DNA from: Selenomonadaceae bacterium
Lineage (GTDB): Bacteria; Bacillota; Negativicutes; Selenomonadales; Selenomonadaceae
Direction of reading: 5' to 3'
Assembly (NCBI GenBank): GCA_017515635.1
Contig: JAFWFO010000001.1
Span: 1,162 to 65,161, forward strand
DNA: 64,000 nucleotides
The notes beneath the pieces are model-generated. The model made no database searches. It was not told the origin of the DNA and worked only from the letters and a program-made list of their open reading frames with translations. Shown piece by piece: positions 593-63,016 of this stretch. The translations under genes were made by a program, and so were the position numbers. Every line of letters begins with the position of its first letter. Position 1 is the stretch's first letter.

Positions 593-2074
593 TTGATAAA
601 AAAACTCAGCGAACTTGCGTTGCTCATCCCCGAAGCGAAAATTTTGGGCAACGACGTTGAAATTTCCGGTATTGAACACGATTCACGCAAGGTTACGGCG
701 AAAAATCTTTTCGTGTGCATGGAAGGCGCGCACGTTGACGGACATAATTTTATCCCGCAGGCAGTTGACGGAGGTGCGGTCGCAGTTCTCACGGCGCGAC
801 AAAATTTCACGCCGCCCGAAAATATTTCCGCGCTGGTTGTCCCCGACATGCTCAATGCGCTTGCGGTTATCGTCCCGTATTTTTACGATTATCCTGCGCG
901 GGCAATGCGAGTTGTCGGCGTCACCGGCACGAACGGCAAAACCACGACGACTTACATGTTGCGCGAAATTTTTTCGACTGCGGGACTTAAAGTCGGCGTA
1001 ATCGGCACGATTCAAATTTTGATTGGCGACGAAAGTTTTCCGAATCCGAACACTACGCCGAACGTCATCGACTTGCAACACGTTTTCGCGGACATGCGGG
1101 CGAAAAATGTTCAAGTTGTCGTCATGGAAGTTTCAAGCCACGCGCTTGCCGAAAATCGCGTTGCGGGCGTCGAATTCGATACGGCGATTTTCACGAACTT
1201 GACGCAAGATCATTTGGATTTTCATGGCACGATGGAAAATTATTTGCGGGCGAAGGCAAAACTTTTCGACATGGTTTCGCGCAAAGGTCGCAAGCAAAAT
1301 AAATCGGCGATTGTCAACGTCGACGACGCGGCGGGCGAAGAAATTTTACGTCATTGCCACTGCAACAAAATTTCTTACGGCGTCGAAAATTCGGCGGACT
1401 TGCACGCGGTTGACGTGAATGTTAAATCGGATGGCATGAAATTCAAAATCCGCGCAGATTTCGGCGTCATGAATTTGACTTTGCACGTGACGGGAATTTT
1501 CAACGTCTATAACGTGCTTGCGACAATCGGGGCGGCTCTTGCGGAAAATATTTCGCCCGAAATTATCAAGCGTGCCTTGGAAAATTTCCGTTGCGTGCCG
1601 GGACGTTTCGAGCGGATTTTTTCATCTGCACCGTTTGAAGTTATCGTCGACTACGCGCACACTCCCGACGGCGTCAAAAATGTTTTGGAGACAGCGCGGC
1701 AAATCGTCACGGGAAAAATTATTACGGTTTTCGGTTGCGGCGGAGATCGCGACAACAAAAAGCGTCCGATTATGGGCAAACTTGCGGCGGAACTTTCCGA
1801 CGTTGTGATTGCCACTTCCGACAATCCGCGCACCGAAAATCCCGAAAAAATTCTTGACGACATCGAAATCGGTATCCGCGAAGTTATCGGCGAAAAAATT
1901 TACGAACGAATTGCCGACAGACGTACCGCGATTTTCCGTGCGATTGAGCTGGCGAATTCCGGCGACGTGGTTTTGATTCTCGGCAAAGGTCACGAAGATT
2001 ATCAGATACTCAACACGGGCAAGATTCACTTTGACGACAGAGAAGTTGCTCGCGAAGCAATAGATAAGCTTTGA
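593..2074 (+). CDS. murE: UDP-N-acetylmuramoyl-L-alanyl-D-glutamate--2,6-diaminopimelate ligase
   Basis: Mur ligase P-loop GVTGTNGKTTT. A DNPR motif (SDNPRTE) is typical of meso-DAP-adding MurE. The start is placed at in-frame TTG 593, 8 nt after AGGAGGGAGG; the ORF-track ATG is at 545. Confidence 0.93.
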   Translation: MIKKLSELALLIPEAKILGNDVEISGIEHDSRKVTAKNLFVCMEGAHVDGHNFIPQAVDGGAVAVLTARQNFTPPENISALVVPDMLNALAVIVPYFYDYPARAMRVVGVTGTNGKTTTTYMLREIFSTAGLKVGVIGTIQILIGDESFPNPNTTPNVIDLQHVFADMRAKNVQVVVMEVSSHALAENRVAGVEFDTAIFTNLTQDHLDFHGTMENYLRAKAKLFDMVSRKGRKQNKSAIVNVDDAAGEEILRHCHCNKISYGVENSADLHAVDVNVKSDGMKFKIRADFGVMNLTLHVTGIFNVYNVLATIGAALAENISPEIIKRALENFRCVPGRFERIFSSAPFEVIVDYAHTPDGVKNVLETARQIVTGKIITVFGCGGDRDNKKRPIMGKLAAELSDVVIATSDNPRTENPEKILDDIEIGIREVIGEKIYERIADRRTAIFRAIELANSGDVVLILGKGHEDYQILNTGKIHFDDREVAREAIDKL

Positions 2075-2147
2075 GCTTTAAGGGGTAACGAAAAATTTCC
2101 TTAAAGCTTAAAGCTCATAAGCTCATAAGCTCATAAGCTCAAAGCTA
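2064..2147 (+). repeat. AAGCTTT heptamer-repeat hairpin plus AAGCTCAT x3 between murE and murF
   Basis: The arms AAGCTTTGAGCTTTAAGG and CCTTAAAGCTTAAAGCT flank a 15-nt loop, followed by (CATAAGCT)x3. The murE TGA lies inside the left arm. Confidence 0.85.
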
Positions 2148-2167
2148 ACAAACGGAGGTTACCACCC

Positions 2168-3526
2168 ATGAATAAATTATCTTTGGCGGAAGTCGCCCAA
2201 GTCACGAACGCCGAAAAAAATTCCGACGCCGAAATTTTCTTCGAGGGCATTACAACCGACAGCAGAAAAATTACGGCGGGTGTTTTATTTGTCGCGCTCA
2301 AAGGCGAAAAATTCAACGGCGAAGATTTTGCCGCCGACGCGCTCACAAAAGGTGCCTCGGCAGTTCTCGTCAGCAAAACTTTCGACAAAAATCTTGACGG
2401 CGTTGTTTTGAAAGTCGACGACACTTTGACTGCTTATCGGCAAATTGCGGGCGCGTGGCGAAATCGTTTCGACGTTCCGATTATCGCGGTCACCGGCTCG
2501 AACGGCAAGACCACCACGAAAGATTTAACTGCCGCCGCGTTGACTTTGTTCGGGCACGTGCTCAAGACTTCGGCGAACTTCAACAACGAAGTCGGCGTCC
2601 CCATGACGTTGCTTGCTCTCGACGAAACTCACCGCGTCGGCGTCGTCGAAATCGGTATGCGCGGTCTCGGACAAATTGAAACGCTTGCCAAAGTCGTCAA
2701 GCCGACAATCGGCATCGTTACCAACGTCAACGAAACGCACATTGAATTGCTCGGCTCGATTGAAAATATCGCGAAGGCGAAAAGCGAACTCGTCAGAGCA
2801 ATTCCCGCAGGCGGCACGGTGATTTTGAACGCGGACGATCCGAACGTTTCGGCAATGAAAAATTTCGTCGCGGACGGCGTCAAAGTCATAACTTACGGGC
2901 TGGAAAATCCCGCCGATTTAACCGCCGGCGAAATTGTAATCGGCAGCGTGTCGACGGAATTTATTTTGCGATACAACGGTTACGAATACGACTTTGAAAT
3001 TCCCATGCTCGGTCGCCACAACGTTTCAAATGCTTTGGCGGCGATTGCGGCGGGAATTGCGCTCGGTTTGAGCGTCGACGAAACTCAGCAGGGAATTTCC
3101 ACGTTGATGACGACAAAAATGCGTTACGAAGTGATTCGGCGCGACGGCTTGACGATTGTCAACGACGCTTACAATGCAAGTCCCGCGTCAATGCGCGTGG
3201 CGATTCGCACGACTGCCGAAATTTACGACGGGCGCAAATTTGCGGTTTTGGGCGACATGTTGGAACTCGGCGAAATTTCAAAAAGAGTTCACCGCGAAGT
3301 TGGTGCGGAGCTGGTCGAAAATAAATTCGACACGTTGATAACGATTGGCGGGCTTGGAAAATTTATTGCCGACGGGGCACGTGATGCCGGCATGAAAAAT
3401 GTTTACGCCGTCGACAGCCACGACGAAGCCGCGCAGAAAATTTTGGAGCTTGTCGAGGAAGGCGACACGATTTTATTCAAGGCGTCGCACGCAATGCACA
3501 TGGAAAAAATTATTGAGCTGATTTAA
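2168..3526 (+). CDS. murF: UDP-N-acetylmuramoyl-tripeptide--D-alanyl-D-alanine ligase
   Basis: Mur ligase P-loop AVTGSNGKTTT, 452 aa, and synteny directly after murE. GGAGG RBS upstream. Confidence 0.93.
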   Translation: MNKLSLAEVAQVTNAEKNSDAEIFFEGITTDSRKITAGVLFVALKGEKFNGEDFAADALTKGASAVLVSKTFDKNLDGVVLKVDDTLTAYRQIAGAWRNRFDVPIIAVTGSNGKTTTKDLTAAALTLFGHVLKTSANFNNEVGVPMTLLALDETHRVGVVEIGMRGLGQIETLAKVVKPTIGIVTNVNETHIELLGSIENIAKAKSELVRAIPAGGTVILNADDPNVSAMKNFVADGVKVITYGLENPADLTAGEIVIGSVSTEFILRYNGYEYDFEIPMLGRHNVSNALAAIAAGIALGLSVDETQQGISTLMTTKMRYEVIRRDGLTIVNDAYNASPASMRVAIRTTAEIYDGRKFAVLGDMLELGEISKRVHREVGAELVENKFDTLITIGGLGKFIADGARDAGMKNVYAVDSHDEAAQKILELVEEGDTILFKASHAMHMEKIIELI

Positions 3527-4174: not shown

Positions 4175-4203
4175 ACTATGAAAAAAATTTTAATTGCGGG
4201 CGA

Positions 4204-4300: not shown

Positions 4301-4308
4301 AATTTTTA

Positions 4309-5301: not shown

Positions 5302-5322
5302 AAATTTTTTGGAGTGACTCAA

Positions 5323-6684
5323 ATGGATTTGGAGAATAAAAAAGTTTTGGTTATCGGCGCGGCACGTAGCGGCATTGCGGCGGCGAAGGTTGCAAAAAAA
5401 TTCGGCGCACTCGTTATCTTGAGCGACGCCAAACTTGAGAGCGAAATTAATTTTGATTTTGACGAACTGCGCGGGCTTGGAATTGATTTGAGTTTCGGCA
5501 AGCAGACCGACGAACTTTTGAGCGGCGTGGATTTGATAATTGTTTCGCCCGCCGTCCCGATAAAAATTCCGTTGCTCAAAAGCGCGGCGGCAAAGAATAT
5601 TCCGATTATCAGCGAAGTCGAATTGGCTTACTCTTTGGCGAAGTCTCCGATTTGCGCGGTGACCGGCACCAACGGCAAAACCACGACGGTTACATTACTC
5701 GGTCTGTTGCTGAAAGAAAAATTTTCCAAAGTCGGCGTCGGCGGAAATATCGGCGTCCCGTTGAGCGAAGTTGCTTTGGAAGTCGGCGCGGGCGGTTGCA
5801 TTGCCGCTGAAATTTCCAGTTACCAAATGGAGGCGACGAAAAATTTTAAACCGCACGTCTCGGCGATTTTGAACGTCACGCCCGATCATTTGAAACGTCA
5901 TGGCTCAATGGAAGTTTATCAGGCGATGAAGGAAAAAATTTTCGCGCAGGAAACCACTGAAGATTTTCTGGTTTTGAATTACGACGACGAAAAAGTCCGC
6001 GAAATGATTGACCGCGCAGGTTGTCGCGTGCTTTACTTCAGCCGCAAAGTTAAACTTTTTGAAGGGGCGTTCGTCAAAAATAATCGGCTCGTCATCAAAT
6101 TCAACGGCGAAACTCACGAACTCTGCACGGTCGACGAACTCGGCATTAAAGGTTGGCATAACGTCGAAAATGCATTGGCGGCGGCATTGACGGCGTTTCT
6201 TGCGGGCGTCGACGCGGAAAAAATTTCCAACGTGCTGAAAACTTTTCAAGGCGTGGAACATCGAATTGAATTCGTGCGCGAAATTGACGGCGTGAAATAT
6301 TACAACGACTCGAAGGCGACAAACACCGATTCGGCGATTAAAGCTCTCGAAACTTTTGCGGGGCACATAATTTTGATTGCGGGCGGCGACGACAAGGGCA
6401 CTGACTTAACAGATTTTCTGCGGCTCGTCAATGAACGCGTCGATTATTTGATTCTCGTCGGTGACGCGGCGAAACGTTTCAAAACCTGCGCGCTTGCCGA
6501 AAATTTCCCTGCCGAAAAAATTTTGGAAGCGGGCTACTCCATGCAACGCGCCGTTGAACTTGCCAAAGAAATTGCTCGTCCGCCGCAAGTTGTATTGCTC
6601 AGTCCCGCCTGCGCAAGTTTCGACATGTACAGCGATTTTGAGGAACGCGGGCGAGATTTCAAGAAGATAGCTTTTGAGCTTTGA
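5323..6684 (+). CDS. murD: UDP-N-acetylmuramoylalanine--D-glutamate ligase
   Basis: N-terminal Rossmann motif VIGAARSG, Mur ligase P-loop AVTGTNGKTTT, and dcw synteny. ATG 5323 lies behind GGAG; the track start is GTG 5314. Confidence 0.93.
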   Translation: MDLENKKVLVIGAARSGIAAAKVAKKFGALVILSDAKLESEINFDFDELRGLGIDLSFGKQTDELLSGVDLIIVSPAVPIKIPLLKSAAAKNIPIISEVELAYSLAKSPICAVTGTNGKTTTVTLLGLLLKEKFSKVGVGGNIGVPLSEVALEVGAGGCIAAEISSYQMEATKNFKPHVSAILNVTPDHLKRHGSMEVYQAMKEKIFAQETTEDFLVLNYDDEKVREMIDRAGCRVLYFSRKVKLFEGAFVKNNRLVIKFNGETHELCTVDELGIKGWHNVENALAAALTAFLAGVDAEKISNVLKTFQGVEHRIEFVREIDGVKYYNDSKATNTDSAIKALETFAGHIILIAGGDDKGTDLTDFLRLVNERVDYLILVGDAAKRFKTCALAENFPAEKILEAGYSMQRAVELAKEIARPPQVVLLSPACASFDMYSDFEERGRDFKKIAFEL

Positions 6685-6703
6685 GCTTTAAGCTTTAAGG
6701 GGG
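6668..6703 (+). repeat. AAGCTTT heptamer repeat, left arm of the inverted repeat enclosing the four-helix-bundle gene
   Basis: GAGCTTTGAGCTTTAAGCTTTAAGG. Its reverse complement matches 7069-7093 at 23 of 25 positions. The murD TGA lies inside it. Confidence 0.85.
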
Positions 6704-6716
6704 AACCGGCTTCATT

Positions 6717-7088
6717 ATGGTTGCTAAAGACCACAAAGATTTAATCGTTTGGCAAAAGTCCATGGACTTGCTCGTCGAAGTTTATCGGCTCGTCAAGAAA
6801 TTGCCGCGTGAAGAAACTTACGCGCTTTCAGACCAAATGCGGCGGGCAGCTGTCTCCATTCCGTCGAACATTGCGGAAGGGCGCGGGCGTTCCTCCGAAA
6901 AAGATTACATCCGCTTTTTGTTCATTTCGCGGGGGTCGCGTGCTGAACTTGATACGCAACTTTTGGCGTGTATTCGGCTCGGCTATCTCGACGAATCCGA
7001 CGTTGAAAACGCTCTAAATTTATCTTCTGAAATCAGTAGCATGTTGAATTCCATGATTTACAAATTATCCTTAAAGCTTAAAGCTTAA
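6717..7088 (+). CDS. four-helix-bundle protein of the 23S rRNA intervening-sequence (S23p-like) family
   Basis: 123 aa. L.VWQKS.DL...VY.L.KKLP.EE.Y.L.DQ.RRAAVSIPSNIAEG.GR.S.KD...FL.I.RGS..EL.TQL matches the TIGR02436/PF05635 signature from memory. Confidence 0.8.
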   Translation: MVAKDHKDLIVWQKSMDLLVEVYRLVKKLPREETYALSDQMRRAAVSIPSNIAEGRGRSSEKDYIRFLFISRGSRAELDTQLLACIRLGYLDESDVENALNLSSEISSMLNSMIYKLSLKLKA

Positions 7089-7100
7089 AGCTTAAAGCTT
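7066..7100 (+). repeat. AAAGCTT heptamer repeat (x4), right arm of the inverted repeat
   Basis: CCTTAAAGCTTAAAGCTTAAAGCTTAAAGCTT. The TAA stop of the enclosed ORF lies inside it. Confidence 0.85.
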
Positions 7101-7123
7101 CGACAACGAGGCAAAAATAACAG

Positions 7124-8218
7124 ATGAGACTAATAGTATCGGGCGGCGGCACGGGCGGACACATTTACCCCGCGCTCACGCTCATTGACGCAATTAAAAC
7201 GAAACGCCCCGACGCAGAATTTTTATACGTCGGCACGAAAAAAGGTCTTGAGGCGGACATTGTCCCAAAGGCTGGAATAAATTTCACCGCGCTCAATCTC
7301 GAAGGCGGGCTGGAACGTCGATTCACTTTGGCGAACATTTCACGTGCCGCCAACGCGATTTGGAGTATCAAACACGCCTCGGACATTGTTCACGATTTCA
7401 AGCCGAATGTTGTTGTCGGCACGGGCGGTTATGTCTGCGGACCGATTCTGCTTGCCGCAAGCTTGATGAAAGTTCCCACGCTGATTCAGGAACAAAACGC
7501 CGTCGCGGGTGTCACGAATAAAATTTTGTCAAAGTTCGTGACGAAAATTGCTGTCGGGACTCATGACGCGCTGAAAAATTTCCCCGCAGAAAAAACCGTT
7601 TACACCGGCAACCCGATTCGTTCGGAAGTTCTTGCCGCGAAAAAATCCGACGGGCTTAAAGAATTCGGATTCACCGCCGACAAGCCGATTGTTTTAATTT
7701 CGGGCGGTTCTCGCGGCGCACGAAGCATTAATAACGCAATGATTGAAGTTTTAAAATCTGCCGCTCAAAAAAATTCCGCGCAGTTTCTTCACGTCACGGG
7801 CAAAGGCGAATTCGACGCCGTCACCGAAAAATTAACCGATGTACTCGACGCGCCGAATATAAAAGTAGTACCGTATCTTTACAACATGCCGCGTGCAATG
7901 GCGATGGCAGATTTGGCAATTTTCCGTGCGGGCGCGACGGGTTTGGCGGAATTGACGGCTCGCGGCGTCCCGTCGATTTTAATTCCGTATCCGTTCGCGG
8001 CGGAAAATCATCAGGAATTCAACGCACGGGCACTTGTCGAGGCAGGCGCGGCGCGAATGATTTTAAATAAAGACTTGACGGCAGAAATTTTATCGGCGAA
8101 AATTGACGAGTTATTGACTGCACCCGAAACGCTCAAAAAAATGTCCGAAGCAAGTTTGTCGCTCGGCAAACCGCACGCCGCCGACGAAATTGCAGAACTT
8201 ATTCTTGAGCTTATATAA
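7124..8218 (+). CDS. murG: undecaprenyldiphospho-muramoylpentapeptide beta-N-acetylglucosaminyltransferase
   Basis: N-terminal GGGTGGHIYPAL, GT28 architecture, and dcw synteny. Confidence 0.95.
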   Translation: MRLIVSGGGTGGHIYPALTLIDAIKTKRPDAEFLYVGTKKGLEADIVPKAGINFTALNLEGGLERRFTLANISRAANAIWSIKHASDIVHDFKPNVVVGTGGYVCGPILLAASLMKVPTLIQEQNAVAGVTNKILSKFVTKIAVGTHDALKNFPAEKTVYTGNPIRSEVLAAKKSDGLKEFGFTADKPIVLISGGSRGARSINNAMIEVLKSAAQKNSAQFLHVTGKGEFDAVTEKLTDVLDAPNIKVVPYLYNMPRAMAMADLAIFRAGATGLAELTARGVPSILIPYPFAAENHQEFNARALVEAGAARMILNKDLTAEILSAKIDELLTAPETLKKMSEASLSLGKPHAADEIAELILELI

Positions 8219-14047: not shown

Positions 14048-15319
14048 ATGGTTGGTGTCAGAAAAGTTGTAGCGATAGTTTGCGGCGGTGGTCCCGCGCC
14101 CGGTATGAACGCCGTCATCAATGCGGTAACGAACACCGCGAACCGTCACGGTTGGGACGTTCTCGGCATGTACGACGGATTTTCGCATCTCGGTCGAGGC
14201 GAAAAAAGTTACATTCGCCTTGATTCGTCCGTCGTCAACAGAATTCATTTGACGGGCGGTTGTATTCTGCGCATGTCGCGTTTCAACCCCACGAAAAAAG
14301 AATCCGACTTGCGCACGGTCGTCGACACGTTGACTGAACTCGGCGTCGGCTATCTCGTGACAATCGGCGGCGACGATACCGCCTTCAGCTCATCGGCTGT
14401 TTCCGAATACGCCCGCAAACTCGGCAGGACGATTAACGTCGTGCACGTCCCGAAAACCATCGATAACGATTTGCCGTTGCCCGAAGGCATTCCGACTTTC
14501 GGCTTTGAAACCGCCCGCGCATTCGGCACGACGGAAATTCAAAACCTCATGGAGGACGCGCACACCTCGAACAATCGCTGGTACTTCACAATCGCAATGG
14601 GACGCACGGCAGGACATCTCGCGTTGGGCATGGGACGCAGTGCAGGTGCCGCCGTTACTATTATCCCTGAAGAATTCCCGCAGGAAAAAATTCGTCTGCA
14701 ACAGGTCGTTGACATTATCACCGGCTCGATTGTCAAACGCTACCTTATCGGCAAAAATTACGGCGTTGCGGTCGTCGCTGAAGGCGTCATCGAAAAAATT
14801 GCTGAGGAAGATTTCCAAGAACTCGGCAACGTCGTCCTCGACGAACACGGCCACATTCGTTATGCGGAATTGGACTTCGGCGAAATTCTTAAGCAAAAAG
14901 TTTTGTCGGAACTCAAACGCCTTGATTTGAAATTCTCAATCGTCGACAAAGAAATCGGCTACGAACTGCGTTGCACGGCTCCGATCGCTTACGACATCGA
15001 CTATGCCCGCAATTTGGGTTACGAAGCAATGCAATTCCTTATGCGCGGCGACAGTGGTGCACTTATCACGATTCAAGACAACAAGGCCGTTCCGCTCCGC
15101 TTTGAAGACATTCGCGACCCCGCCACGGGTAAAACTTTCGTGCGCAGAGTCAACATCGATTCCGTTCACTACAGAATTGCTCGCGGCTTCATGACTCGCC
15201 TTGAACGTGACGATTTGGATGACGCCGGTGTTGCCAACGCATTCCGCATGAGCCCCGAAGAATTCAAAAATCGCTACATGTATTTGTTCGACGAAGAACC
15301 GACGCTTAACAATGCGTAA
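14048..15319 (+). CDS. pfp: pyrophosphate-dependent 6-phosphofructokinase (PPi-PFK type)
   Basis: GGGPAPGMN is present. GGDDT and PKTIDND replace the GGDGS and PGTIDND of ATP-dependent PFKs. The Asp and Lys substitutions are the established PPi-specificity markers. Confidence 0.85.
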   Translation: MVGVRKVVAIVCGGGPAPGMNAVINAVTNTANRHGWDVLGMYDGFSHLGRGEKSYIRLDSSVVNRIHLTGGCILRMSRFNPTKKESDLRTVVDTLTELGVGYLVTIGGDDTAFSSSAVSEYARKLGRTINVVHVPKTIDNDLPLPEGIPTFGFETARAFGTTEIQNLMEDAHTSNNRWYFTIAMGRTAGHLALGMGRSAGAAVTIIPEEFPQEKIRLQQVVDIITGSIVKRYLIGKNYGVAVVAEGVIEKIAEEDFQELGNVVLDEHGHIRYAELDFGEILKQKVLSELKRLDLKFSIVDKEIGYELRCTAPIAYDIDYARNLGYEAMQFLMRGDSGALITIQDNKAVPLRFEDIRDPATGKTFVRRVNIDSVHYRIARGFMTRLERDDLDDAGVANAFRMSPEEFKNRYMYLFDEEPTLNNA

Positions 15320-15342
15320 TGCGTAATGCTTAATGCGTAATT
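15311..15342 (+). repeat. GCGTAAT heptamer tandem repeat (4 units) carrying the pfp stop codon
   Basis: AATGCGTAATGCGTAATGCTTAATGCGTAATT. TAA occurs at 15317, 15324, 15331 and 15338, which covers all three frames. Confidence 0.9.
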
Positions 15343-15383
15343 GAAAAAATCCCCGACGCTCGATTGAACGTTGGGGATTTTTG
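15343..15383. terminator. bidirectional terminator between pfp and mrdA
   Basis: A6-ATCCCCGACG-loop-CGTTGGGGAT-T4. Confidence 0.8.
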
Positions 15384-20742: not shown

Positions 20743-20932
20743 CACAGGAAATTATGCGGAATTAAATTCGCGTCAACAATTCCAAATTCACATTCCAAAT
20801 TGCAGTTTCAGCGCACGGATCAACGCAAAAAGTTTTCGTGAACGCAATTTTTCGCTAAGCTTGACAAAGCAACTTTACAAATTATCAAACGCGGCGTAAA
20901 ATCCCTAGCTTTAGCTATAAGCTTTAACAAAC

Positions 20933-27469: not shown

Positions 27470-28708
27470 TTATTTGCTCATTGCCTCAATGCAAAGTTGA
27501 CGAGTTTTCTTCGCACGTTCAAAATTTGGATTGAGTTCAAGAGCTTTGTCCAAACTTTTTATCGCTTGCCGGTAATCTTTCAGGAAATAATAAGCCGCGC
27601 CGCGATTGTTGTACGCCTCGGTATAATTCGGATTAAGCTGAATTGCTCTATCGAAATCTTTAACCGCCCGCTCGTATTGCTTGTTGTGGAAGTGAATAAT
27701 TCCGCGATTATTGTAAGCCAAAGCATAATTCGGGTTGATTTGAATTGCCTTGTCGAAATTTTGAAACGCTTGCTCATATTGCTGTTTATGCAAGTAAGCG
27801 TTGCCGCGATTGTAATATGCTTTGTCGAAATTCGGATTGAGTCGAATTGCTTCGTCGTAATCTTGAATCGCTCTATCGTATTGATTCAAATTGTCGTAAA
27901 CACTTCCGCGGTTATTGTACGCCAGAACATAATTCGGATTGAGTTCGATGGCCTTGTCATAATCTTGAATCGCCCGCTCGTATTGTCTCAAGTCGTCGTA
28001 AACGTTTCCGCGATTGTTATACGCTCCAAAATAATTCGGATTGATTTGAATTGCTTCGTCGTAAAGTTTCATCGCTCCGTTGTAATTTTTGGCGTAATAA
28101 AGTTTGTTGCCCGCGTCAAGTTTTTGCTCCGCTAAAAATTCACGGTCGGCGTCGTTTATCTGCTCGCGAATTTGATTTTTTTCGTCTTGAGATGTTGCGC
28201 TCCGATATTGTTCCTGCAAATTCTCGGCAAGCTCGTCATTTCTCTGAATCGCGTCTTGCAAGTCGTTATTCTGCCTCAGAATTGCAACTTTGTCTGTTTC
28301 GTCGCGGTTAATCCAATCGTAAATGCCGTCGGGGTCGATTTTCGCTTGAAGTGTCGCCGTATAAAGAATTGTCGTCTGACTGTCGCTGAGCGGAATAATT
28401 TTTTTGTCGAAGTTGACTTCGCCGATAATCTCGATGATATTGTTCGTGACCGCTGAAATTTCGTCTTCCGCAAGCTCAAGGTTGACGGTTTTTGAAAAAG
28501 TTTTGAGATAAACGCCGGCTTTTTTCTGAGCGTCGAGTTGAGCGCGTTGGCTTGCGCGAGACATTGCAATTTTTTGATTGTCGTCGTCGTTGGTGTGCCA
28601 TTCGCCTTTGCCGTCAAAAATTTGTACGGCCGCAACGCAAATCGTCGCCGAAATCACACACGCGACAATAAAAATCGCCGTCAACGCCCGTCGAAAAAAT
28701 TTTTTCAT
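27470..28708 (-). CDS. membrane-anchored tetratricopeptide-repeat protein
   Basis: N-terminal TM or signal segment, then a coiled segment. At least 7 tandem 34-aa TPR units follow (AIQ.NPNY..AYNNRG..Y..L.QY..AI.D.D.AI). ATG lies behind GAGGAGGTGA. Confidence 0.85.
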   Translation of the reverse strand: MKKFFRRALTAIFIVACVISATICVAAVQIFDGKGEWHTNDDDNQKIAMSRASQRAQLDAQKKAGVYLKTFSKTVNLELAEDEISAVTNNIIEIIGEVNFDKKIIPLSDSQTTILYTATLQAKIDPDGIYDWINRDETDKVAILRQNNDLQDAIQRNDELAENLQEQYRSATSQDEKNQIREQINDADREFLAEQKLDAGNKLYYAKNYNGAMKLYDEAIQINPNYFGAYNNRGNVYDDLRQYERAIQDYDKAIELNPNYVLAYNNRGSVYDNLNQYDRAIQDYDEAIRLNPNFDKAYYNRGNAYLHKQQYEQAFQNFDKAIQINPNYALAYNNRGIIHFHNKQYERAVKDFDRAIQLNPNYTEAYNNRGAAYYFLKDYRQAIKSLDKALELNPNFERAKKTRQLCIEAMSK

Positions 28709-31306: not shown

Positions 31307-31497
31307 CCCTCCACGAAAAATTTTCAAGTTCAGCTTGCTTGTCGATTTGACTTCGACGCGGCAATTAAAATTCCTTTTGGCAACAAAAATTATCGACAAC
31401 AATTCTGCGCCGCCGCCGGAAATCCTTTAAAAAATTTCGGGCAACTGATATAATCGTCAAAAAGCTTTAAGCTCAAAGTTACAAACGGAGGCAACTC

Positions 31498-38036: not shown

Positions 38037-38068
38037 ATTCCTAACTCCTAATTCCAAACTCCTAACTG
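38037..38068. repeat. CCTAA(C/T)T heptamer-like repeat in the gmhB/ctsR divergent region
   Basis: ATTCCTAACTCCTAATTCCAAACTCCTAACTG. It has a single arm and no inverted partner nearby. Confidence 0.7.
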
Positions 38069-39393: not shown

Positions 39394-39401
39394 TAATCGC
39401 G

Positions 39402-39594
39402 AAACTTGGGGCGGAGCGAAATTCTCCACCGGCGGTGACAGTCCGCGAGCCTTTTTTCAGTTAGGAATTTGGAATTAGGAATTAGGAATTAGTTGAACGA
39501 CTTAATTCCTAACTGCTAACTCCTCACTCCTAATTAAAAAGGTTGACTCGGCGAAATTCCGAGACCGACGGTTAAAGTCCGGATGTGAAAGTTT
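39402..39594 (+). promoter_or_regulatory. FMN riboswitch (RFN element) aptamer with an enlarged variable hairpin
   Basis: P1 is AAACUU/AAGUUU. The conserved blocks are GGGGCGGAGCGAAAUUCUCCACCGGCGGU, AGUCCGCGAGCC and GGCGAAAUUCCGAGACCGACGGUUAAAGUCCGGAUG.GA.AG. A ~90-nt heptamer-repeat hairpin sits in the variable loop. Confidence 0.9.
39459..39538 (+). repeat. AATTAGG heptamer-repeat hairpin
   Basis: AGTTAGGAATTTGGAATTAGGAATTAGGAATTA-loop-TAATTCCTAACTGCTAACTCCTCAC. The 33-nt left arm is identical to the reverse complement of part of 62941-63016. Confidence 0.85.
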
Positions 39595-39612
39595 TGCAAA
39601 CATCAATTTGAA

Positions 39613-43175: not shown

Positions 43176-44369
43176 ATGAGTGAATTTGCAACGATTGAGC
43201 AGGCTATTGACGACATTAAGCGCGGCAAGATGATTGTTGTTGTCGACGACGAAGACCGCGAAAACGAAGGCGACTTGATTGTTGCCGCCGAGACCGTCAC
43301 GCCCGCCGACATAAATTTTATGGCGACGCACGCCAAAGGTTTGATTTGCACGCCCATTGACGGCAAACGCCTTGACGAACTGGAAATCGGGCAGATGGTC
43401 ACCAACAACACCGACAATCACGAAACGGCCTTCACGGTGTCGATTGACGCTTACGACACGGACACGGGCATTTCCGCTTACGAACGCTGTCACACGATTA
43501 AAATGTTGCTTGACCCTGCCGCGAAGTCTTCAAGTTTTCGTCGACCGGGTCACGTCTTCCCGCTACGTTCGGTTGAGGGCGGAGTTTTGCGCCGCGCCGG
43601 TCACACGGAGACGACAACCGACCTTGCGCGATTGGCGGGCTTTTATCCTGCGGGTTTGTGTTGCGAAATTATGGATGACGACGGGCACATGATGCGCACG
43701 GAAAATCTTAAAAAATTCGCGGACAAACACGGGCTGAACATTATCAGTGTTCGGGCGTTGATTGAATATCGCAAGCGCACGGAAAAATTCGTCAAGCAAA
43801 TTGCCGACGTGGATTTTCCCAGCAAGTACGGGCATTTTCGGCTTAAAGCTTATGAAAGCACGCTTGACGGCAAATGTCATCTGGCGATTGTCAAAGGCGA
43901 CGTTGCGGGCAAGTCGAACGTTTTGGTTCGCGTGCATTCGGAGTGCCTGACGGGCGACGCGTTGGGAAGTTTGCGTTGTGATTGCGGCGATCAACTTGCC
44001 ACGGCGCTGAAAAAAATCGACGCGGCGGGCGAAGGCGTTTTGCTTTACATGCGGCAGGAAGGTCGCGGAATCGGACTTGCCAACAAAATTCGGGCTTACG
44101 CACTTCAAGACGCGGGCAAAGACACTGTCGAAGCGAACGTTATTTTGGGATTCAAGCCCGATCTTCGCGATTACGGTATCGGCGCGCAGATTCTTTCCGA
44201 CTTGGGCTTGACGACGATAAAACTTTTGACGAACAATCCCGCCAAACGCGCAGGACTTGAAGGGCACGGCTTGACTATAACCGAACGCGTCCCGATTGTC
44301 ATTGCGCCGACGAAGTTCGATAAAAATTATCTCACCGTCAAAAAAACTAAAATGGGTCACGTATTGTAA
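43176..44369 (+). CDS. ribBA: bifunctional 3,4-dihydroxy-2-butanone-4-phosphate synthase / GTP cyclohydrolase II
   Basis: [11 protein letters not shown] (DHBP synthase), and [20 protein letters not shown] (the GCH II zinc site). Confidence 0.95.
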
Positions 44370-44449
44370 GCTTTTAGCTTATGAGCTTTAAGCTTTAAGT
44401 AAAATTTTCGTCACTCCCTTAAAGCTCAAAGCTTGCAGTTTAAAGCTAA
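44366..44449 (+). repeat. AAGCTTT heptamer-repeat hairpin between ribBA and ribH
   Basis: The arms GAGCTTTAAGCTTTAAG and CTTAAAGCTCAAAGCTT flank a ~18-nt loop. The ribBA stop TAA begins the repeat. Confidence 0.8.
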
Positions 44450-46074: not shown

Positions 46075-46107
46075 CATTACGCATTACGAATTACGCATTA
46101 CGCATTG
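46075..46107 (-). repeat. GCGTAAT heptamer tandem repeat (4-5 units)
   Basis: The minus strand reads CAATGCGTAATGCGTAATTCGTAATGCGTAATG, with a 7-nt period. Confidence 0.85.
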
Positions 46108-46144
46108 AAAAAACCCTCCGACATTTGCCGAAGGGCTTTTTTTA
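46107..46144 (-). terminator. cassette terminator (copy 2 of 3)
   Basis: The minus strand reads CCCTTCG-GCAAATGT-CGGAGGG plus T6. Confidence 0.75.
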
Positions 46145-46161
46145 CTGCCGAGACGATTTTT

Positions 46162-51118: not shown

Positions 51119-52168
51119 TCAATCACCCGTCCTGACTTGCTGCCCGTCGCGCAGTTTGTGCACGCCGGCAACGACAACTTTATCGCCCGACTTCAGCCCG
51201 CGCACGCGCACGGAATTTTCGTCGAACGCGGAAACTTCAACTTGACGCAACGAAACTTTATCGCCGTCGACAAGCCAAACTTGAGCAACTCCGCCCGTTT
51301 GATAAATCGCGCTGAGAGGCACAACAATCGCGCTTGAAGAAATTTTTGACGCCGGTGAAACGCTTGCCGTCATGCCGAGCCGAATATTGGGCACGTCGGG
51401 CAAAGAAATTTTCACGGCGAACGTTCGGGACGCGGGATCAGCCATCGGGGAAATTTCGCGAACGGAACCGCTTACACCGTCGCCCGTCGCCCAAAATTTT
51501 ATCGTGACGCGTTGACCGATTTGCACAGAAGAAATTTTGTTTTCGGGAATGTTGACGACGACATCAAAATCATTTGTCTGCACGAGCGTCAAAACGGTTT
51601 GCCCCGCCGCAACGACTTGACCGATTTCCGCGTTGACGTTCGAGATGACCCCGTCGGCGTTCGCGGTTAAATGCGTGTAACCCAGCGCGTTTTGACTTTG
51701 GCGGGCTTGAGCAACTGCGGCGTCGTAAGTTGCCAAAGCGGCGTCGTATTGAGTTTTGTATTGATCGAGCACGGCGGCGGCTATCGCTTCGGATTTAAAA
51801 AGTTCCGTATATCTGTCGAGATTCGCTTTGGCAAGTTGCAGTTGAGCTTGAGCGGAGGCAACCTGCGCGGCGGCGGAATGCGATTGTTCGACGATGTCTT
51901 TCGGGTCGAGCGTCATTAAAATTTCGCCCGCGTGAACCAAGTCGCCCGTTTGCACGTCGCGAGAAATAATTTTCCCGCTGACTTGAAACGACATATTTGT
52001 TTCGTAACGGCCTTTGACGACGCCCGAATAATTTTCTTCGTCGGCGGTGTCGGAAAGTTTGACTTGCTGAACTTTGACGACGGGCGGTTTCATCGGAACA
52101 ACAACTTCGTTGCACCCCGTCACAAAAAAACTCGCCGTGATTATTCCCGTCACAAAAAAATTACGCAT
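51119..52168 (-). CDS. efflux RND periplasmic adaptor (membrane fusion protein), probable lipoprotein
   Basis: Lipobox FFVTGC, with barrel-sandwich, coiled-coil and beta-barrel order typical of the HlyD_D23 family. The start is ambiguous (ATG 52168 or GTG 52180) because it lies in a heptamer repeat. Confidence 0.85.
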   Translation of the reverse strand: MRNFFVTGIITASFFVTGCNEVVVPMKPPVVKVQQVKLSDTADEENYSGVVKGRYETNMSFQVSGKIISRDVQTGDLVHAGEILMTLDPKDIVEQSHSAAAQVASAQAQLQLAKANLDRYTELFKSEAIAAAVLDQYKTQYDAALATYDAAVAQARQSQNALGYTHLTANADGVISNVNAEIGQVVAAGQTVLTLVQTNDFDVVVNIPENKISSVQIGQRVTIKFWATGDGVSGSVREISPMADPASRTFAVKISLPDVPNIRLGMTASVSPASKISSSAIVVPLSAIYQTGGVAQVWLVDGDKVSLRQVEVSAFDENSVRVRGLKSGDKVVVAGVHKLRDGQQVRTGD

Positions 52169-52190
52169 TACGCATTCCACATTCCTAATT
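52160..52190 (-). repeat. GCGTAAT / AATTAGG-like heptamer repeats at the gamma-CA/MFP junction
   Basis: The minus strand reads AATTAGGAATGTGGAATGCGTAATGCGTAAT. Confidence 0.7.
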
Positions 52191-58653: not shown

Positions 58654-58684
58654 GTGCAAACCTCACTTCACGAAAATTTTTGAA

Positions 58685-59347: not shown

Positions 59348-59358
59348 AATTTTTCACC

Positions 59359-60750: not shown

Positions 60751-60765
60751 TTCAAAATTTCGTAA

Positions 60766-61956: not shown

Positions 61957-61957
61957 G

Positions 61958-62923
61958 TCAGTTGACGACGTTGACGGGCTTGCCCGCCAGAAAAGCTTTA
62001 ACATTTTCGACGGCGATATTCATCAGACGCACGCGGGATTCTTTCGGTGCCCAGCTGATATGCGGCGTGATGAAACAATTTTTTGCGCCCAAAAGCGGAT
62101 TGTCGGCTTTAATCGGTTCAGCCGACACAACGTCAACGCCCGCCGCGTAAACTTTGCCGCTGTCGAGAGCGTCGCGCAAATCCTGTTCGACAACCAAACC
62201 GCCGCGCCCGTTGTTGATGATTATGACGCCGTCTTTCATCTTCGCGATATTTTCTTTGCAGATAATTCCCTGCGTCGACGGGAACAACGGACAATGCAAG
62301 GCAATAACGTCCGAAGTTTTAAAAAGTTCGTCAAGCTCCACGAATGAACAATCGCCCAATTTCGTACCGATTTCACGATGAGGAGCGAACGCGATAACTT
62401 TCATGCCGAACGCTTGAGCAAGTTTGCCCGTGGTTTGACCGATTCGCCCGTAACCGATAATGCCAATCGTCTTGCCCGCAAGCTCAATCAGCGGATGTTC
62501 CCAAAAACAAAAATCGGCGGAACTTTCCCAACGCCCCGCATGAACGGCCGCGCTGTGGTCGCCGACACGACTGCAAATTTCCAAAAGCAACGCGAACGCA
62601 AATTGTGCGGCGGCTTGCGTGCTGTAGTTCGGGACGTTCGTAACGGGAATATTTTTTTCGCGAGCGGCTTGCACGTCGACAACGTTATAGCCCGTTGCCA
62701 AAACTCCAACGTAGCGAATACTTTTACAGGCGTCGAAAATATTTTTCGTTATCGGCGTTTTATTCGTGATGATAATCTGCGCGTCGCCGATACGCGAAAT
62801 AATTTCCGCTTCGTCGGTTAAACTTGTGCGGTCGTAGATTTTGCATTCGCCGAGCGCGTTAAAGCCGTCCCAGCTCAAATCGCCGGGGTTGAGCGTGTAT
62901 CCGTCCAAAACAACAATTTTCAT
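61958..62923 (-). CDS. D-isomer-specific 2-hydroxyacid dehydrogenase (glycerate dehydrogenase-like)
   Basis: GIIGYGRIGQ NAD motif, with R..., E... and H catalytic spacing (FITPHISW). Confidence 0.88.
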   Translation of the reverse strand: MKIVVLDGYTLNPGDLSWDGFNALGECKIYDRTSLTDEAEIISRIGDAQIIITNKTPITKNIFDACKSIRYVGVLATGYNVVDVQAAREKNIPVTNVPNYSTQAAAQFAFALLLEICSRVGDHSAAVHAGRWESSADFCFWEHPLIELAGKTIGIIGYGRIGQTTGKLAQAFGMKVIAFAPHREIGTKLGDCSFVELDELFKTSDVIALHCPLFPSTQGIICKENIAKMKDGVIIINNGRGGLVVEQDLRDALDSGKVYAAGVDVVSAEPIKADNPLLGAKNCFITPHISWAPKESRVRLMNIAVENVKAFLAGKPVNVVN

Positions 62924-62940
62924 GCGGCAACCTCCAATCA

Positions 62941-63016
62941 GTGAGGAGTTTGAAGTTAGGAGTTAGGAGTTAATCTCGTCTTAATTCCTAATTCCTAATT
63001 CCAAATTCCTAACTCA
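62941..63016 (-). repeat. AATTAGG heptamer-repeat hairpin (same element as in the FMN riboswitch loop)
   Basis: The minus strand reads GAGTTAGGAATTTGGAATTAGGAATTAGGAATTA-loop-AACTCCTAACTCCTAACTTCAAACTCCTCAC. The TAG stop of the upstream gene lies in the first unit. Confidence 0.85.

What the first reader, a model, noticed from the sequence alone, without database searches (positions are those of the whole stretch)
2064..63016. Three families of heptanucleotide tandem repeats sit exactly on gene boundaries and provide stop codons in all three frames
Intergenic spacers repeatedly contain 3-5 tandem copies of 7-nt units.
- AAGCTTT/AAAGCTT (the HindIII palindrome plus one base) at 2064-2147, 6668-6703, 7066-7100, 31461-31480 and 44366-44449, with a weak copy at 20905-20925.
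- AATTAGG/CCTAATT at 38037-38068, 39459-39538 and 62941-63016.
- GCGTAAT at 15311-15342, 46075-46107 and 52160-52178.

Each unit contains TAA or TAG. Because 7 is not a multiple of 3, three consecutive units place a stop in every frame; for example, TAA occurs at 15317, 15324, 15331 and 15338.

The real stop codons of murE, murD, the four-helix-bundle ORF, pfp, ribBA and the CobT-like gene all fall inside these arrays. The GCGTAAT family is in the sense orientation relative to local transcription in 3 of 3 cases.

Tandem heptamers (STRR) are known from heterocystous cyanobacteria. I am not aware of a described equivalent in diderm Firmicutes-like genomes, or of a stop-in-all-frames rationale.
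Basis: partly seen in the sequence, partly recalled or inferred. Interest (0 to 1): 0.62.

Follow-up and report, generated by a model that had tools for sequence, protein, structure and literature searches.

The report
Heptamer-armed hairpin elements in a rumen bacterium
The 7-base tandem repeats are real, but they are mostly the two arms of about 80-base hairpin elements that have spread through this rumen Quinella-like genome; their stop codons look like a by-product, and their full-length form appears to carry a small "23S rRNA intervening-sequence protein" gene.

Summary
Observation confirmed and extended. The genome (2.5 Mb Quinella-like MAG, Selenomonadaceae) holds about 200 period-7 arrays, against 0 in a Markov control and 6 or fewer at periods 6 and 8. 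83% of array bases are intergenic.

The stop-in-all-frames rationale is not supported.
- Stops in all three frames are as common on the antisense strand (47%) as on the sense strand (39%).
- One arm variant and one orientation of GCGTAAT carry no stops.
- Arrays also lie in-frame, stop-free, inside RpoC, PurL, FolC, MtaB and CopA.
- One hairpin sits inside an FMN riboswitch loop.

Arrays are mainly complementary arms of hairpins with fixed polarity. They fill the gap between a stop codon and the next Shine-Dalgarno site. Relatives have 14-31 nt spacers at the same places, so the hairpins are insertions.

Each species has its own unit families. In this genus PF05635 four-helix-bundle genes are nearly always bracketed by inverted heptamer arrays, and all three window families occur as such arms. 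The protein tree tracks the arm family. In most genomes checked the arm family is also abundant as dispersed arrays.

Best reading: IVS-like palindromic elements with gene-less miniature copies, comparable to REPIN/RPE. The copying mechanism is unknown.

The parts
2064..2147 (+). AAAGCTY-family (F1) hairpin filling the murE-murF spacer. The 5' arm (RAGCTTT)n contains the murE stop. The 3' arm (AAAGCTY)n ends 8 nt before the murF SD. The 3' arm also carries a local 8-nt variant expansion (AAGCTCAT x4.6 at 2111-2146).
   Evidence: Fold -31.5 kcal/mol, z -6.0. The orthologous spacer is 14-31 nt in most relatives.
6668..6703 (+). 5' arm (RAGCTTT)n of the full-length element. It contains the murD stop and replaces murD's last 4-5 codons.
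   Evidence: It pairs with 7066-7100 at duplex dG -46.9 kcal/mol.
6717..7088 (+). 123-aa four-helix-bundle ORF (PF05635, 23S rRNA intervening-sequence protein) in the 'loop' between the two F1 arms. It is the only copy found in this 87%-complete genome.
   Evidence: Pfam E 2.2e-40. Single hit in the genome. Absent from this junction in many relatives.
7066..7100 (+). 3' arm (AAAGCTT)x4.4 of the full-length element. It overlaps the ORF's stop and ends 24 nt before the murG start.
15311..15342 (+). GCGTAAT-family (F3) solo array in sense orientation. It contains the stop of gene 14048-15319 and is followed by an intrinsic-terminator-like hairpin.
   Evidence: F3 arrays almost never have a nearby inverted partner (1 of 22).
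20905..20925 (+). Weak, degenerate F1-like remnant.
   Evidence: Below my census threshold.
31461..31480 (+). Weak solo 3'-arm-type F1 array followed by ACAAACGGAGG (SD), upstream of gene 31498.
   Evidence: Same tail as at 2148-2158. AACGGAGG follows F1 3' arms in 23% of cases against 2.2% of all genes.
38037..38068 (+). Solo 3'-arm-type AGGARTT-family (F2) array (AAYTCCT)n, upstream of ctsR (38136) in a divergent spacer.
39459..39538 (+). F2 hairpin inserted in the variable loop of the FMN riboswitch (aptamer 39398-39598).
   Evidence: Rfam RF00050, 97.5 bits, with a 79-nt insertion at the variable stem. Fold -28.2 kcal/mol, z -4.6. A metagenome unitig carries 9 nt in place of 39451-39543.
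44366..44449 (+). F1 hairpin between ribBA (stop inside the 5' arm) and ribH (44433).
   Evidence: Fold -25.8 kcal/mol, z -4.3.
46075..46107 (-). F3 solo array (GCGTAAT on the transcribed minus strand), lying just after a terminator hairpin.
52160..52178 (-). Short F3 array between two minus-strand genes.
62941..63016 (-). F2 hairpin between two minus-strand genes. The stop of the upstream gene (63009-63011) lies in the 5' arm.
   Evidence: Fold -29.4 kcal/mol, z -6.5.

Best explanation
The heptamer arrays are the terminal inverted repeats (arms) of a genus-wide class of small palindromic insertion elements.

**Full-length form.** 5' arm (G-over-C heptamer array), SD, PF05635 four-helix-bundle ORF, then the complementary 3' arm. 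This is the architecture of ORF-bearing 23S rRNA intervening sequences. Window 6668-7100 is one such copy.

**Other copies.** Most copies are gene-less miniature hairpins with 3-7 heptads per arm and a 3-30 nt unique loop. Others are single surviving arms.

**Where they persist (shown).** They survive where a self-folding insert is tolerated:
- between a stop codon and the next SD inside operons;
- in a riboswitch variable loop;
- in-frame in surface segments of proteins, provided the frame read is stop-free.

**Stop codons (inferred).** Many units carry a stop triplet and 7 is not a multiple of 3. A copy landing on a gene's 3' end therefore truncates it by only a few codons. That is why real stops fall inside arrays. 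It is a permissive by-product, not the function.

**Array dynamics (inferred).** Within an array, slippage changes copy number and homogenises units.

**Family turnover (shown).** Between species, unit families turn over. In most genomes checked, the family around the PF05635 gene is also abundant as dispersed arrays.

**Transcripts (inferred).** The arms would pair into 20-35 bp stems, which are likely RNase III substrates or mRNA-end protectors.

**Copying (unknown).** How copies are made is not known. A role of the PF05635 protein in recognising its cognate heptamer is a hypothesis.
For: **Hairpin structure.**
- 77 of 203 arrays have an inverted partner within 150 nt, against 3 in the control.
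- Polarity is fixed: RAGCTTT then AAAGCTY in 12 of 15 close F1 pairs, and AGGARTT then AAYTCCT in 9 of 9 close F2 pairs.
- Window hairpins fold with z -4.3 to -6.5.

**Insertions relative to relatives.**
- The murE-murF spacer is 14-31 nt in most relatives. It holds an F1 hairpin here and in L005, and a hairpin of a different family in L006.
- L024 has a gene-less hairpin between murD and murG.

**Non-junction sites.**
- FMN riboswitch loop.
- In-frame in RpoC, PurL, FolC, MtaB, CopA, ABC-F, IorA and others.
- The RpoC hairpin is absent from 17 same-genus orthologs and is confirmed on metagenome unitigs.

**Defined element ends.** C at position -1 of F2 arrays in 42 of 67 cases.

**Link to PF05635.**
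- At least 14 of 19 PF05635 genes located by BLAST with adequate flanks have strongly complementary flanks. The 5' unit equals the reverse complement of the 3' unit, within one or two bases, in 12 of the 14 cases where both arms were called.
- F2 arms bracket the gene in L131, L143 and L144. F3 arms bracket it in L137 and L142. F1 arms bracket it here.
- The protein tree tracks arm family: an AAT-type clade (support 99/96), an AATTAGG subclade (98/98), an AGGG-type clade (96/94).

**Arm co-variation at one orthologous locus.** Cognate duplex dG averages -38 kcal/mol against -28 for non-cognate pairings; 9 of 720 permutations do as well.

**Arm family matches a family dispersed in that genome.**
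- F1: 165 hits here, 16 or fewer in all others.
- AAAACCT: 79 and 172 hits in the L012 and L013 genomes. It also has 105 hits in the L016 genome, whose murD-murG arms are AAGCTAT.
- AAGCTAT: 57 hits in the L016 genome, and 27 in the L006 genome.
- TTAAGGA: 200 hits in G024, whose IVP arms are TAAGGAT.
- F3 is most abundant (191 hits) in G002, which has an F3-armed gene.

**Taxonomic distribution.** PF05635 occurs in 16 of 25 same-genus genomes and 2 of 16 other genera. F1, F2 and F3 occur in 0 of 16 other genera. Spearman rho is 0.50, p 0.011, between PF05635 copy number and F1+F2 hits.
Against: - No transposase, RAYT or reverse transcriptase is linked to the arrays. PF01797 and PF00078 are absent, and the 11 TnpB genes are not array-associated.
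- No target-site duplication was seen.
- Loops are unique in sequence and show no clear remnant of the ORF. 'Miniature derivative' is therefore inferred from the shared arms only.
- This genome has about 97 F2 and about 56 F3 pattern hits but no F2- or F3-armed PF05635 gene. The MAG is 87% complete.
- G004 has an F3-armed gene but only 10 F3 hits.
- The link between gene and arms could equally mean that the gene inserts into pre-existing hairpins.
- Two sites suggest local seeding or microhomology, not transposition. The native murD end GAGCTTTGA and the native FolC segment 'KSLKL' both resemble an F1 unit at exactly the place where an array sits.
- The sense RNA fold is not more stable than the antisense fold. 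For F2 it is less stable (p 0.025). There is thus no G-U signature of selection on the mRNA hairpin.
- No RNA-end data are available.
Confidence: 0.6

Rival explanations
1. The arrays are selected as frame-independent translational stop pads that catch read-through or frameshifted ribosomes at gene ends.
For: - Six window genes end inside arrays.
- Stop-side arms start within 10 nt of the stop in 46 of 64 cases.
- 39% of arrays carry stops in all three sense frames, against 2% of control spacers.
Against: - Stops in all frames are equally or more frequent on the antisense strand (47%).
- (AAAGCTC)n and (ATTACGC)n have no stops, and ATTACGC is the majority sense orientation of that family (12 against 6).
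- About half of the arrays sit before start codons, not after stops.
- Arrays also occur in a riboswitch loop and in-frame inside about 10 conserved genes, where the stops are avoided.
- Relatives manage the same junctions with 14-31 nt spacers and no array.
Confidence: 0.06
2. These are ordinary microsatellites. Polymerase slippage favours 7-nt units, as proposed by Mrazek et al. 2007 (cited in PMC4679880). Arrays are born in situ from chance heptamer doublets, and the inverted pairs arise secondarily. No mobility and no link to any gene is involved.
For: - Heptamer SSR over-representation is widespread in bacteria.
- Copy number differs between species at the same site, and one arm carries a private 8-nt expansion.
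- The native murD end and the FolC 'KSLKL' segment resemble an F1 unit at array sites.
- No mobilising enzyme was found.
Against: - In-situ birth predicts many unrelated units. Here three families give about 180 of 203 arrays.
- Hairpin polarity is fixed and F2 has a defined end base.
- Whole hairpins appear at junctions that are 14-31 nt in relatives.
- Families are genome-specific and match the arms of the PF05635 gene.
Confidence: 0.15
3. These are primarily host-selected RNA elements. The intercistronic stems serve as RNase III processing sites or as stabilisers of mRNA 3' and 5' ends, punctuating polycistronic transcripts. Spread and turnover are secondary. This is compatible with the best explanation as an exaptation.
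For: - 86% of arrays lie in co-directional spacers.
- Stems of 20-35 bp lie exactly between the stop and the SD, and mostly lack a U-tract.
- Arms co-vary across six species at one locus.
- A metatranscriptome unitig runs through the 5' arm, so the arms are transcribed.
- By analogy, IVS stems in 23S rRNA and Correia elements in Neisseria mRNAs are cut by RNase III (established knowledge).
Against: - Most hairpins are absent at orthologous junctions in close relatives, so they are not conserved regulators.
- The distribution over spacer types roughly follows the number of spacers.
- The sense fold is no more stable than the antisense fold, and weaker for F2.
- Copies inside coding regions and a riboswitch are hard to explain by operon punctuation.
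Confidence: 0.17
4. Assembly or binning artefact of a metagenome-assembled genome.
For: - Four arrays lie at contig ends.
- The genome is a 72-contig MAG.
Against: - Identical sequence across the arrays is found in unitigs from several independent ruminant metagenomes and a metatranscriptome.
- Orthologous arrays occur in MAGs from other studies.
- The in-frame copies preserve long open reading frames.
Confidence: 0.01

Closest known systems
STRR (short tandemly repeated repetitive) heptamers of heterocystous cyanobacteria; GGGAATC / GGGGAYT heptamer repeats of Xanthomonas and Nostoc (PMC4692102); TAACTGA repeats of marine Beggiatoaceae (PMC4679880)
   Same: - Tandem 7-nt units, 2-9 copies, overwhelmingly intergenic, with several families per genome.
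- Some occur as inverted pairs (Xanthomonas, Nostoc).
- Length and sequence vary between close relatives.
- Forward TAACTGA repeats were already noted to give stops in all three frames.
   Different: - A different phylum (Negativicutes, rumen Quinella-like genus) and different units.
- Here the dominant form is a complementary two-arm hairpin of fixed polarity.
- Copies also lie in-frame in proteins and in a riboswitch.
- The arrays are tied to a PF05635 gene. I did not find that link in the papers read.
REP / BIME / REPIN elements with their RAYT transposase (PMC3116915, PMC3333891)
   Same: - Species-specific populations of intergenic palindromic repeats, as singlets and as inverted doublets forming long hairpins.
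- A low-copy gene is flanked by the very repeat family that is dispersed in the genome.
- Families turn over between species.
   Different: - No Y1/RAYT gene (PF01797 absent).
- The flanked gene is a 120-aa four-helix bundle with no known catalytic activity.
- The arms are tandem heptamers, not a single imperfect palindrome with a GTAG/CGTC tag.
Rickettsia palindromic elements (RPE), as summarised in the prokaryotic MITE review PMC10969869
   Same: Hairpin-forming repeats that insert not only between genes but also in-frame into conserved protein-coding genes and into structured RNA genes, and are tolerated as extra peptide or stem segments.
   Different: - RPEs are about 100-150 bp single-copy-unit palindromes, not heptamer arrays.
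- They occur in a different phylum.
- No associated gene is known.
ORF-bearing 23S rRNA intervening sequences (Leptospira, Coxiella; PF05635 'S23p')
   Same: The same protein family lies in the loop of a long stem formed by flanking inverted repeats.
   Different: - Here the element sits in mRNA operons (murD-murG and other junctions), not in 23S rRNA.
- The stems are built from tandem heptamers.
- Many gene-less copies exist.
- RNase III excision is untested.

Membership tests
STRR-type bacterial heptamer SSRs | Tandem repeats with a 7-nt unit, over-represented relative to neighbouring periods and to chance | tested here: met
   108 runs at period 7, against 0 in the Markov control and 6 and 1 at periods 6 and 8. 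TRF: 357 rows against 86 and 64.
STRR-type bacterial heptamer SSRs | Predominantly intergenic, with a few sequence families per genome | tested here: met
   83% of array bases are intergenic. Three families give about 180 of 203 arrays.
STRR-type bacterial heptamer SSRs | Occurrence in heterocystous cyanobacteria (the original definition) | tested here: not met
   The closest genomes are Quinella / Selenomonadaceae MAGs.
REPIN/RAYT system | Inverted doublets of a dispersed intergenic repeat that form a long hairpin | tested here: met
   77 of 203 arrays have an inverted partner within 150 nt, against 3 in the control. Folds.
REPIN/RAYT system | A Y1 (HUH) RAYT transposase gene flanked by the repeats | tested here: not met
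   PF01797 gives no hit in the genome. The flanked gene is PF05635 instead.
Rickettsia palindromic elements (behavioural class) | Palindromic repeat inserted in-frame in conserved protein genes and in structured RNAs | tested here: met
   RpoC, PurL, FolC, MtaB, CopA and others. FMN riboswitch loop.
Rickettsia palindromic elements (behavioural class) | Sequence homology to RPE families | not tested
   Different phylum, and the arms are built of heptamers. No comparison was run.
ORF-bearing 23S rRNA IVS | PF05635 ORF enclosed by inverted repeats that form a stem | tested here: met
   Pfam E 2e-40. Duplex dG -46.9 kcal/mol for the window copy. At least 14 of 19 genus copies with adequate flanks have complementary flanks.
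ORF-bearing 23S rRNA IVS | Located in a 23S rRNA helix | tested here: not met
   The copy lies between murD and murG. Rfam finds no rRNA in the window.
ORF-bearing 23S rRNA IVS | Excised from the transcript by RNase III | not testable with these tools
   Only assembled unitigs of one metatranscriptome were available.
MITE (miniature inverted-repeat transposable element) | Terminal inverted repeats and a gene-bearing parent element with the same ends | tested here: met
   The same heptamer families form gene-less hairpins and bracket PF05635 genes.
MITE (miniature inverted-repeat transposable element) | Target-site duplication and a parent-encoded transposase | tested here: not met
   No duplication at the murE-murF or murD-murG junctions when compared with empty sites. 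PF05635 is not a known transposase.
Intrinsic terminator | GC-rich hairpin followed directly by a U-tract | tested here: not met
   3' arms are followed by A-rich sequence plus an SD (e.g. ACAAACGGAGG). Only a minority of F2 copies have a T-run.

The most novel reading that the evidence does not exclude
PF05635 'intervening-sequence' four-helix-bundle proteins are the trans-acting partners of bacterial heptamer repeats. Each protein lineage recognises its own 7-nt unit, as DNA or RNA, and drives or maintains the spread of gene-less hairpin copies. This would be a RAYT/REPIN-like system with a completely different protein and no known nuclease. If true, it would explain STRR-type heptamer repeats, ORF-bearing rRNA intervening sequences and these Quinella hairpins as one class of element.
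Probability: 0.3. Interest if true: 0.9.

Novelty: new variant of a known kind. Interest (0 to 1): 0.7.

Why it matters
Heptamer repeats (STRR and relatives) have been known for decades without an accepted origin or function. PF05635 is a widespread protein family of unknown role.

This genus offers a compact natural experiment. It has dozens of species, each with private heptamer families, and low-copy PF05635 genes bracketed by those families. Copies sit in operon junctions, in a riboswitch and in essential proteins such as RpoC.

That makes two questions directly testable:
- Does the protein recognise its cognate heptamer?
- Do the stems process or stabilise operon mRNAs?

There are practical consequences as well.
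- Annotation pipelines will mis-call gene ends where the last codons and the stop are supplied by an array.
- The arrays break short-read assemblies; four contigs end in arrays.

Tried and rejected
- **G-U wobble test for selection on the sense mRNA hairpin.** The sense fold is not more stable. F1 shows no bias (p 0.5). For F2 the antisense fold is more stable (p 0.025). AGGAATT outnumbers AGGAGTT 61 to 19 on the sense strand, while the complementary arm is split 27 to 23. This suggests avoidance of SD-like AGGAG, not structure selection.\n- **Mobilising enzymes.** Y1/RAYT transposase (PF01797) and reverse transcriptase (PF00078) are both absent. Of the 11 TnpB genes, ten have their nearest array 1 kb or more away or have none on the contig; one gene starts about 75 nt downstream of an F2 hairpin on contig C69.\n- **Strain-level copy-number variation from public runs.** Only Logan unitigs were available. 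They break at the arrays, and arrays attract unitigs from other loci. No 7-nt indel was seen, so the test is uninformative.\n- **RNA-end evidence.** No raw-read RNA runs hold this organism.\n- **Restriction-site idea for AAGCTT (HindIII site).** The site is not avoided outside arrays: 956 observed, against about 1193 expected in total. Rejected.\n- **Long-range gene-bracketing pairs other than the PF05635 case.** Only a handful of opposite-orientation same-family neighbours lie within 3 kb, which is not clearly above chance.\n- **Prediction that F3 would be abundant in both genomes with F3-armed PF05635 genes.** Confirmed for G002 (191 hits, the highest of 25). Not confirmed for G004 (10 hits). 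The tool's reversed-pattern control is invalid for this unit, because the reversed pattern is a rotation of the same repeat.\n- **Intrinsic-terminator reading.** Most hairpins lack a U-tract.

Full report

The window is contig C19:1162-65161 of a 2.51-Mb, 72-contig, 48.7% GC genome.

- Genome-wide, period-7 runs of about three or more copies number 108. A third-order Markov simulation gives 0, and periods 6 and 8 give 6 and 1.
- TRF gives 357 period-7 rows, against 86 for period 6 and 64 for period 8.
- A relaxed census finds 203 arrays in 166 clusters.
- Three families dominate: AAAGCTY (F1, about 83), AGGARTT (F2, about 75, including AATGAGG-like variants) and GCGTAAT (F3, about 22).
- I wrote a dicodon-score gene caller, which gives 2360 genes and 91% coding. 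With it, 83% of array bases are intergenic and 86% of arrays lie between co-directional genes.
- Unitigs identical across the arrays occur in independent sheep, goat and bovine gut metagenomes and in one metatranscriptome. The arrays are therefore not assembly artefacts.

The nearest genomes are rumen Selenomonadaceae MAGs, several of them labelled Quinella, with MurD 80-87% identical.

**2. What the arrays are structurally**

- 2064-2147, 44366-44449, 39459-39538 and 62941-63016 fold into single long hairpins, at -25.8 to -31.5 kcal/mol and z -4.3 to -6.5.
- Genome-wide, 77 of 203 arrays have an inverted partner within 150 nt. A complement-only control gives 3.
- Polarity is fixed. It is 5'-(RAGCTTT)n loop (AAAGCTY)n-3' in 12 of 15 close F1 pairs, and 5'-(AGGARTT)n loop (AAYTCCT)n-3' in 9 of 9 close F2 pairs.
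- Loops are 3-30 nt and unique in sequence.
- F3 arrays are almost never paired (1 of 22).
- On the transcribed strand, the RAGCTTT and AGGARTT arms abut the upstream stop, at median distances of 1 and 5 nt. The AAAGCTY and AAYTCCT arms end about 20-29 nt before the next start, just upstream of the SD. The same holds for unpaired arrays.
- F2 elements have a defined outer end: C at position -1 in 42 of 67 cases, i.e. TC|AATTAGG...CCTAATT|GA.
- AACGGAGG follows F1 3' arms in 23% of cases, against 2.2% of all genes.

**3. They are insertions, not conserved spacers**

- At the murE-murF junction most relatives have 14-31 nt. This genome and L005 carry an F1 hairpin there. L006 carries a hairpin of a different family, AGGAGTT/AAATCCT.
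- Between murD and murG many relatives have overlapping stop and start codons. Some have an SMR gene. L024 has a gene-less hairpin. Six species, this one included, have a 123-aa ORF flanked by inverted arrays.
- The hairpin at 39459-39538 is not at a gene boundary. It occupies the variable loop of an FMN riboswitch (RF00050, 97.5 bits, with a 79-nt insertion). A metagenome unitig carries 9 nt in its place.

About 13 arrays in 10 conserved genes lie deep inside the coding sequence, read in-frame without a stop. The genes are RpoC, PurL (two sites), FolC, an MtaB-like enzyme (two sites), CopA, an ABC-F ATPase, IorA, two radical-SAM proteins and a restriction-modification helicase.

- In RpoC the segment SFKLEALSFKGDDTQSSKL is an F1 hairpin.
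- Seventeen same-genus orthologs carry unrelated sequence of 15-22 aa at that position, and other genera carry about 6 aa.
- A 597-nt unitig from runs X4 and X5 spans it.
- In three coding copies the unit that would give TAA reads GAA (the AAGCTTG variant).
- In MtaB the two arrays coincide with 6-7-aa gaps in the alignment to a solved MiaB.

**4. Test of the stop-in-all-frames rationale**

Any 7-nt unit that holds one stop triplet puts a stop in every frame within three units. The question is whether that property is selected.

- 39% of arrays have stops in all three frames on the sense strand and 47% on the antisense strand. Control spacer windows give 2%. The property is not strand-specific.
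- (AAAGCTC)n and (ATTACGC)n have no stop in any frame.
- F3 is sense-oriented as GCGTAAT in only 6 of 18 co-directional cases.
- By my strict calls, only 33 of 203 arrays contain a gene's stop.
- The coding-region copies show selection for the opposite property.

The simplest account is this. Ancestral operon spacers are a few bases long, so an inserted hairpin necessarily abuts the stop and the SD. A copy that lands on the last codons is tolerated because the array soon supplies a stop; murD's last codons here read IAFEL* out of the array. MacGregor (PMC4679880) had already noted that forward TAACTGA repeats give stops in all frames.

**5. Link to the PF05635 gene**

The ORF at 6717-7088 is a 23S-rRNA-intervening-sequence protein (PF05635, E 2e-40). 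It is the only copy found in this 87%-complete genome.

*Arm co-variation at the orthologous locus.* The arms differ by species: AGCTTTR/YAAAGCT in this window and in L005 and L007, AGGTTTT/AAAACCT in L012 and L013, and ATAGCTT/AAGCTAT in L016. The two arms always stay complementary. Cognate duplex dG averages -38 kcal/mol against -28 for non-cognate pairings, and 9 of 720 permutations do as well.

*Arm family matches a dispersed family of that genome.*
- F1 has 165 pattern hits here and 16 or fewer in 24 congeners.
- AAAACCT has 79 and 172 hits in the L012 and L013 genomes. It also has 105 hits in the L016 genome, whose murD-murG arms are AAGCTAT.
- AAGCTAT has 57 hits in the L016 genome and 27 in the L006 genome.
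- G024 has 200 hits of a TTAAGGA family, and its PF05635 gene has TAAGGAT arms.

*Across relatives.*
- PF05635 occurs in 16 of 25 same-genus genomes and in 2 of 16 other genera of the class. F1, F2 and F3 arrays occur in none of those 16 genera.
- Gene copy number correlates with F1+F2 hits (Spearman rho 0.50, p 0.011).
- Of 30 fetched loci, at least 14 of the 19 located by BLAST with adequate flanks have strongly complementary flanks. The two arms carry the same unit, within one or two bases, in 12 of the 14 cases where both were called.
- F2 arms bracket the gene in L131, L143 and L144. F3 arms bracket it in L137 and L142.
- A maximum-likelihood tree of the proteins tracks arm type. There is an AAT-type clade (support 99/96) containing an AATTAGG subclade (98/98) and an AATGCGT pair (90/75), and an AGGG-type clade (96/94).
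- I predicted that F3 would be abundant where an F3-armed gene exists. This held for G002 (191 hits, the highest) but not for G004 (10 hits).

**6. Mechanism: what is shown and what is inferred**

*Shown.*
- The arrays are arms of hairpin-forming insertions with defined polarity.
- They are gained and replaced at permissive sites.
- Families are lineage-specific.
- The same families form the inverted termini of PF05635 genes.

*Inferred.*
- Gene-less hairpins are miniature derivatives of the gene-bearing form. The analogues are REPIN/RAYT, MITE/IS, and RPE for the in-frame behaviour.
- Slippage explains copy-number differences and private expansions, such as the 8-nt AAGCTCAT run at 2111-2146.
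- In RNA the 20-35 bp stems should be RNase III substrates, as IVS stems are.

*Not known.*
- How copies are made. No Y1 transposase or reverse transcriptase is present, and the TnpB genes are not array-linked. No target duplication is visible.
- Two sites suggest homology-assisted seeding: native GAGCTTTGA at the murD end, and native KSLKL in FolC.
- The G-U test gives no evidence that the sense mRNA fold is the selected object.

**7. Comparison and novelty**

Heptamer SSRs are known from cyanobacteria (STRR), Xanthomonas and Nostoc (PMC4692102) and Beggiatoaceae (PMC4679880). Hairpin repeat populations tied to a flanked gene are known as REPIN/RAYT (PMC3116915). In-frame palindromic insertions are known as RPEs (PMC10969869).

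I found no paper describing such elements in Quinella, Selenomonadaceae or Negativicutes, and none linking PF05635 to heptamer repeats.

Earlier AI notes from this scan report similar hairpins and the same PF05635 link in other phyla. I treated these as leads and tested the link independently within this genus.

I file the finding as a new variant of a known kind. If the protein-repeat partnership proves real, it would be a new kind of system.

Noticed in passing
whole genome (G000): The palindromes GAGCTC (72 observed against about 372 expected) and CAATTG (70 against about 540) are strongly avoided, which suggests active restriction-modification systems with these targets. AAGCTT is not avoided.
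   Followed up: partly
window 2111-2146: The 3' arm of the murE-murF hairpin carries a private 8-nt variant expansion (AAGCTCAT x4.6) that has no counterpart in the 5' arm. This points to local slippage acting on one arm alone.
   Followed up: no
G000 C26:30922-34944 (rpoC) and loci L086-L112: The whole genus has a 15-22-aa lineage-specific segment in RpoC between 'LQAEI.VR' and 'VKTSVGRMIFNE', where other genera have about 6 aa. In some relatives its DNA looks weakly palindromic, so it may be a decayed older hairpin insertion.
   Followed up: partly
window 6684-7124 versus loci L006, L008, L009, L011, L015, L044: The murD-murG junction is a hot spot for small inserted genes. An SMR (EmrE-like) gene sits there in six relatives, the PF05635 gene in six others, and nothing in the rest.
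   Followed up: partly
genome-wide F2 arrays, sense strand: On the transcribed strand the stop-side arm uses AGGAATT far more than AGGAGTT (61 against 19). The complementary arm uses AATTCCT and AACTCCT about equally (27 against 23). This fits avoidance of SD-like AGGAG in mRNA, and it puts A-C mismatches into the sense hairpin.
   Followed up: partly
window 46108-46145 and 15345-15382; G000 C26:83760-83838: F3 arrays sit directly beside strong intrinsic-terminator hairpins, before one and after two others. Two of these share flanks (tttttcAATGCGTAATG...aaaaatctttg), as if they were part of a repeated promoter/terminator cassette of the double-glycine peptide genes.
   Followed up: no
whole genome (G000): There are eleven TnpB-like (PF07282) genes but no Y1 TnpA. 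These are non-autonomous IS605-type elements or domesticated TnpB.
   Followed up: partly
window 27599-28077: A 102-nt-period tandem repeat (about 4-5 copies, 74-77% matches) lies inside the minus-strand gene 27470-28684. It probably encodes 34-aa (TPR-like) protein repeats.
   Followed up: no
G000 contigs C19, C35, C49, C55: Four contigs begin or end in a heptamer array, so the arrays are one cause of assembly breaks in this MAG.
   Followed up: no
PF05635 loci L115-L144: In all 13 PF05635 elements with a callable 5' arm, the 5' unit has G at least as frequent as C (e.g. AGGTTTT, AAGGGAC, AATGCGT), and the 3' arm is the C-rich complement. The same polarity rule holds for the gene-less hairpins.
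   Followed up: partly
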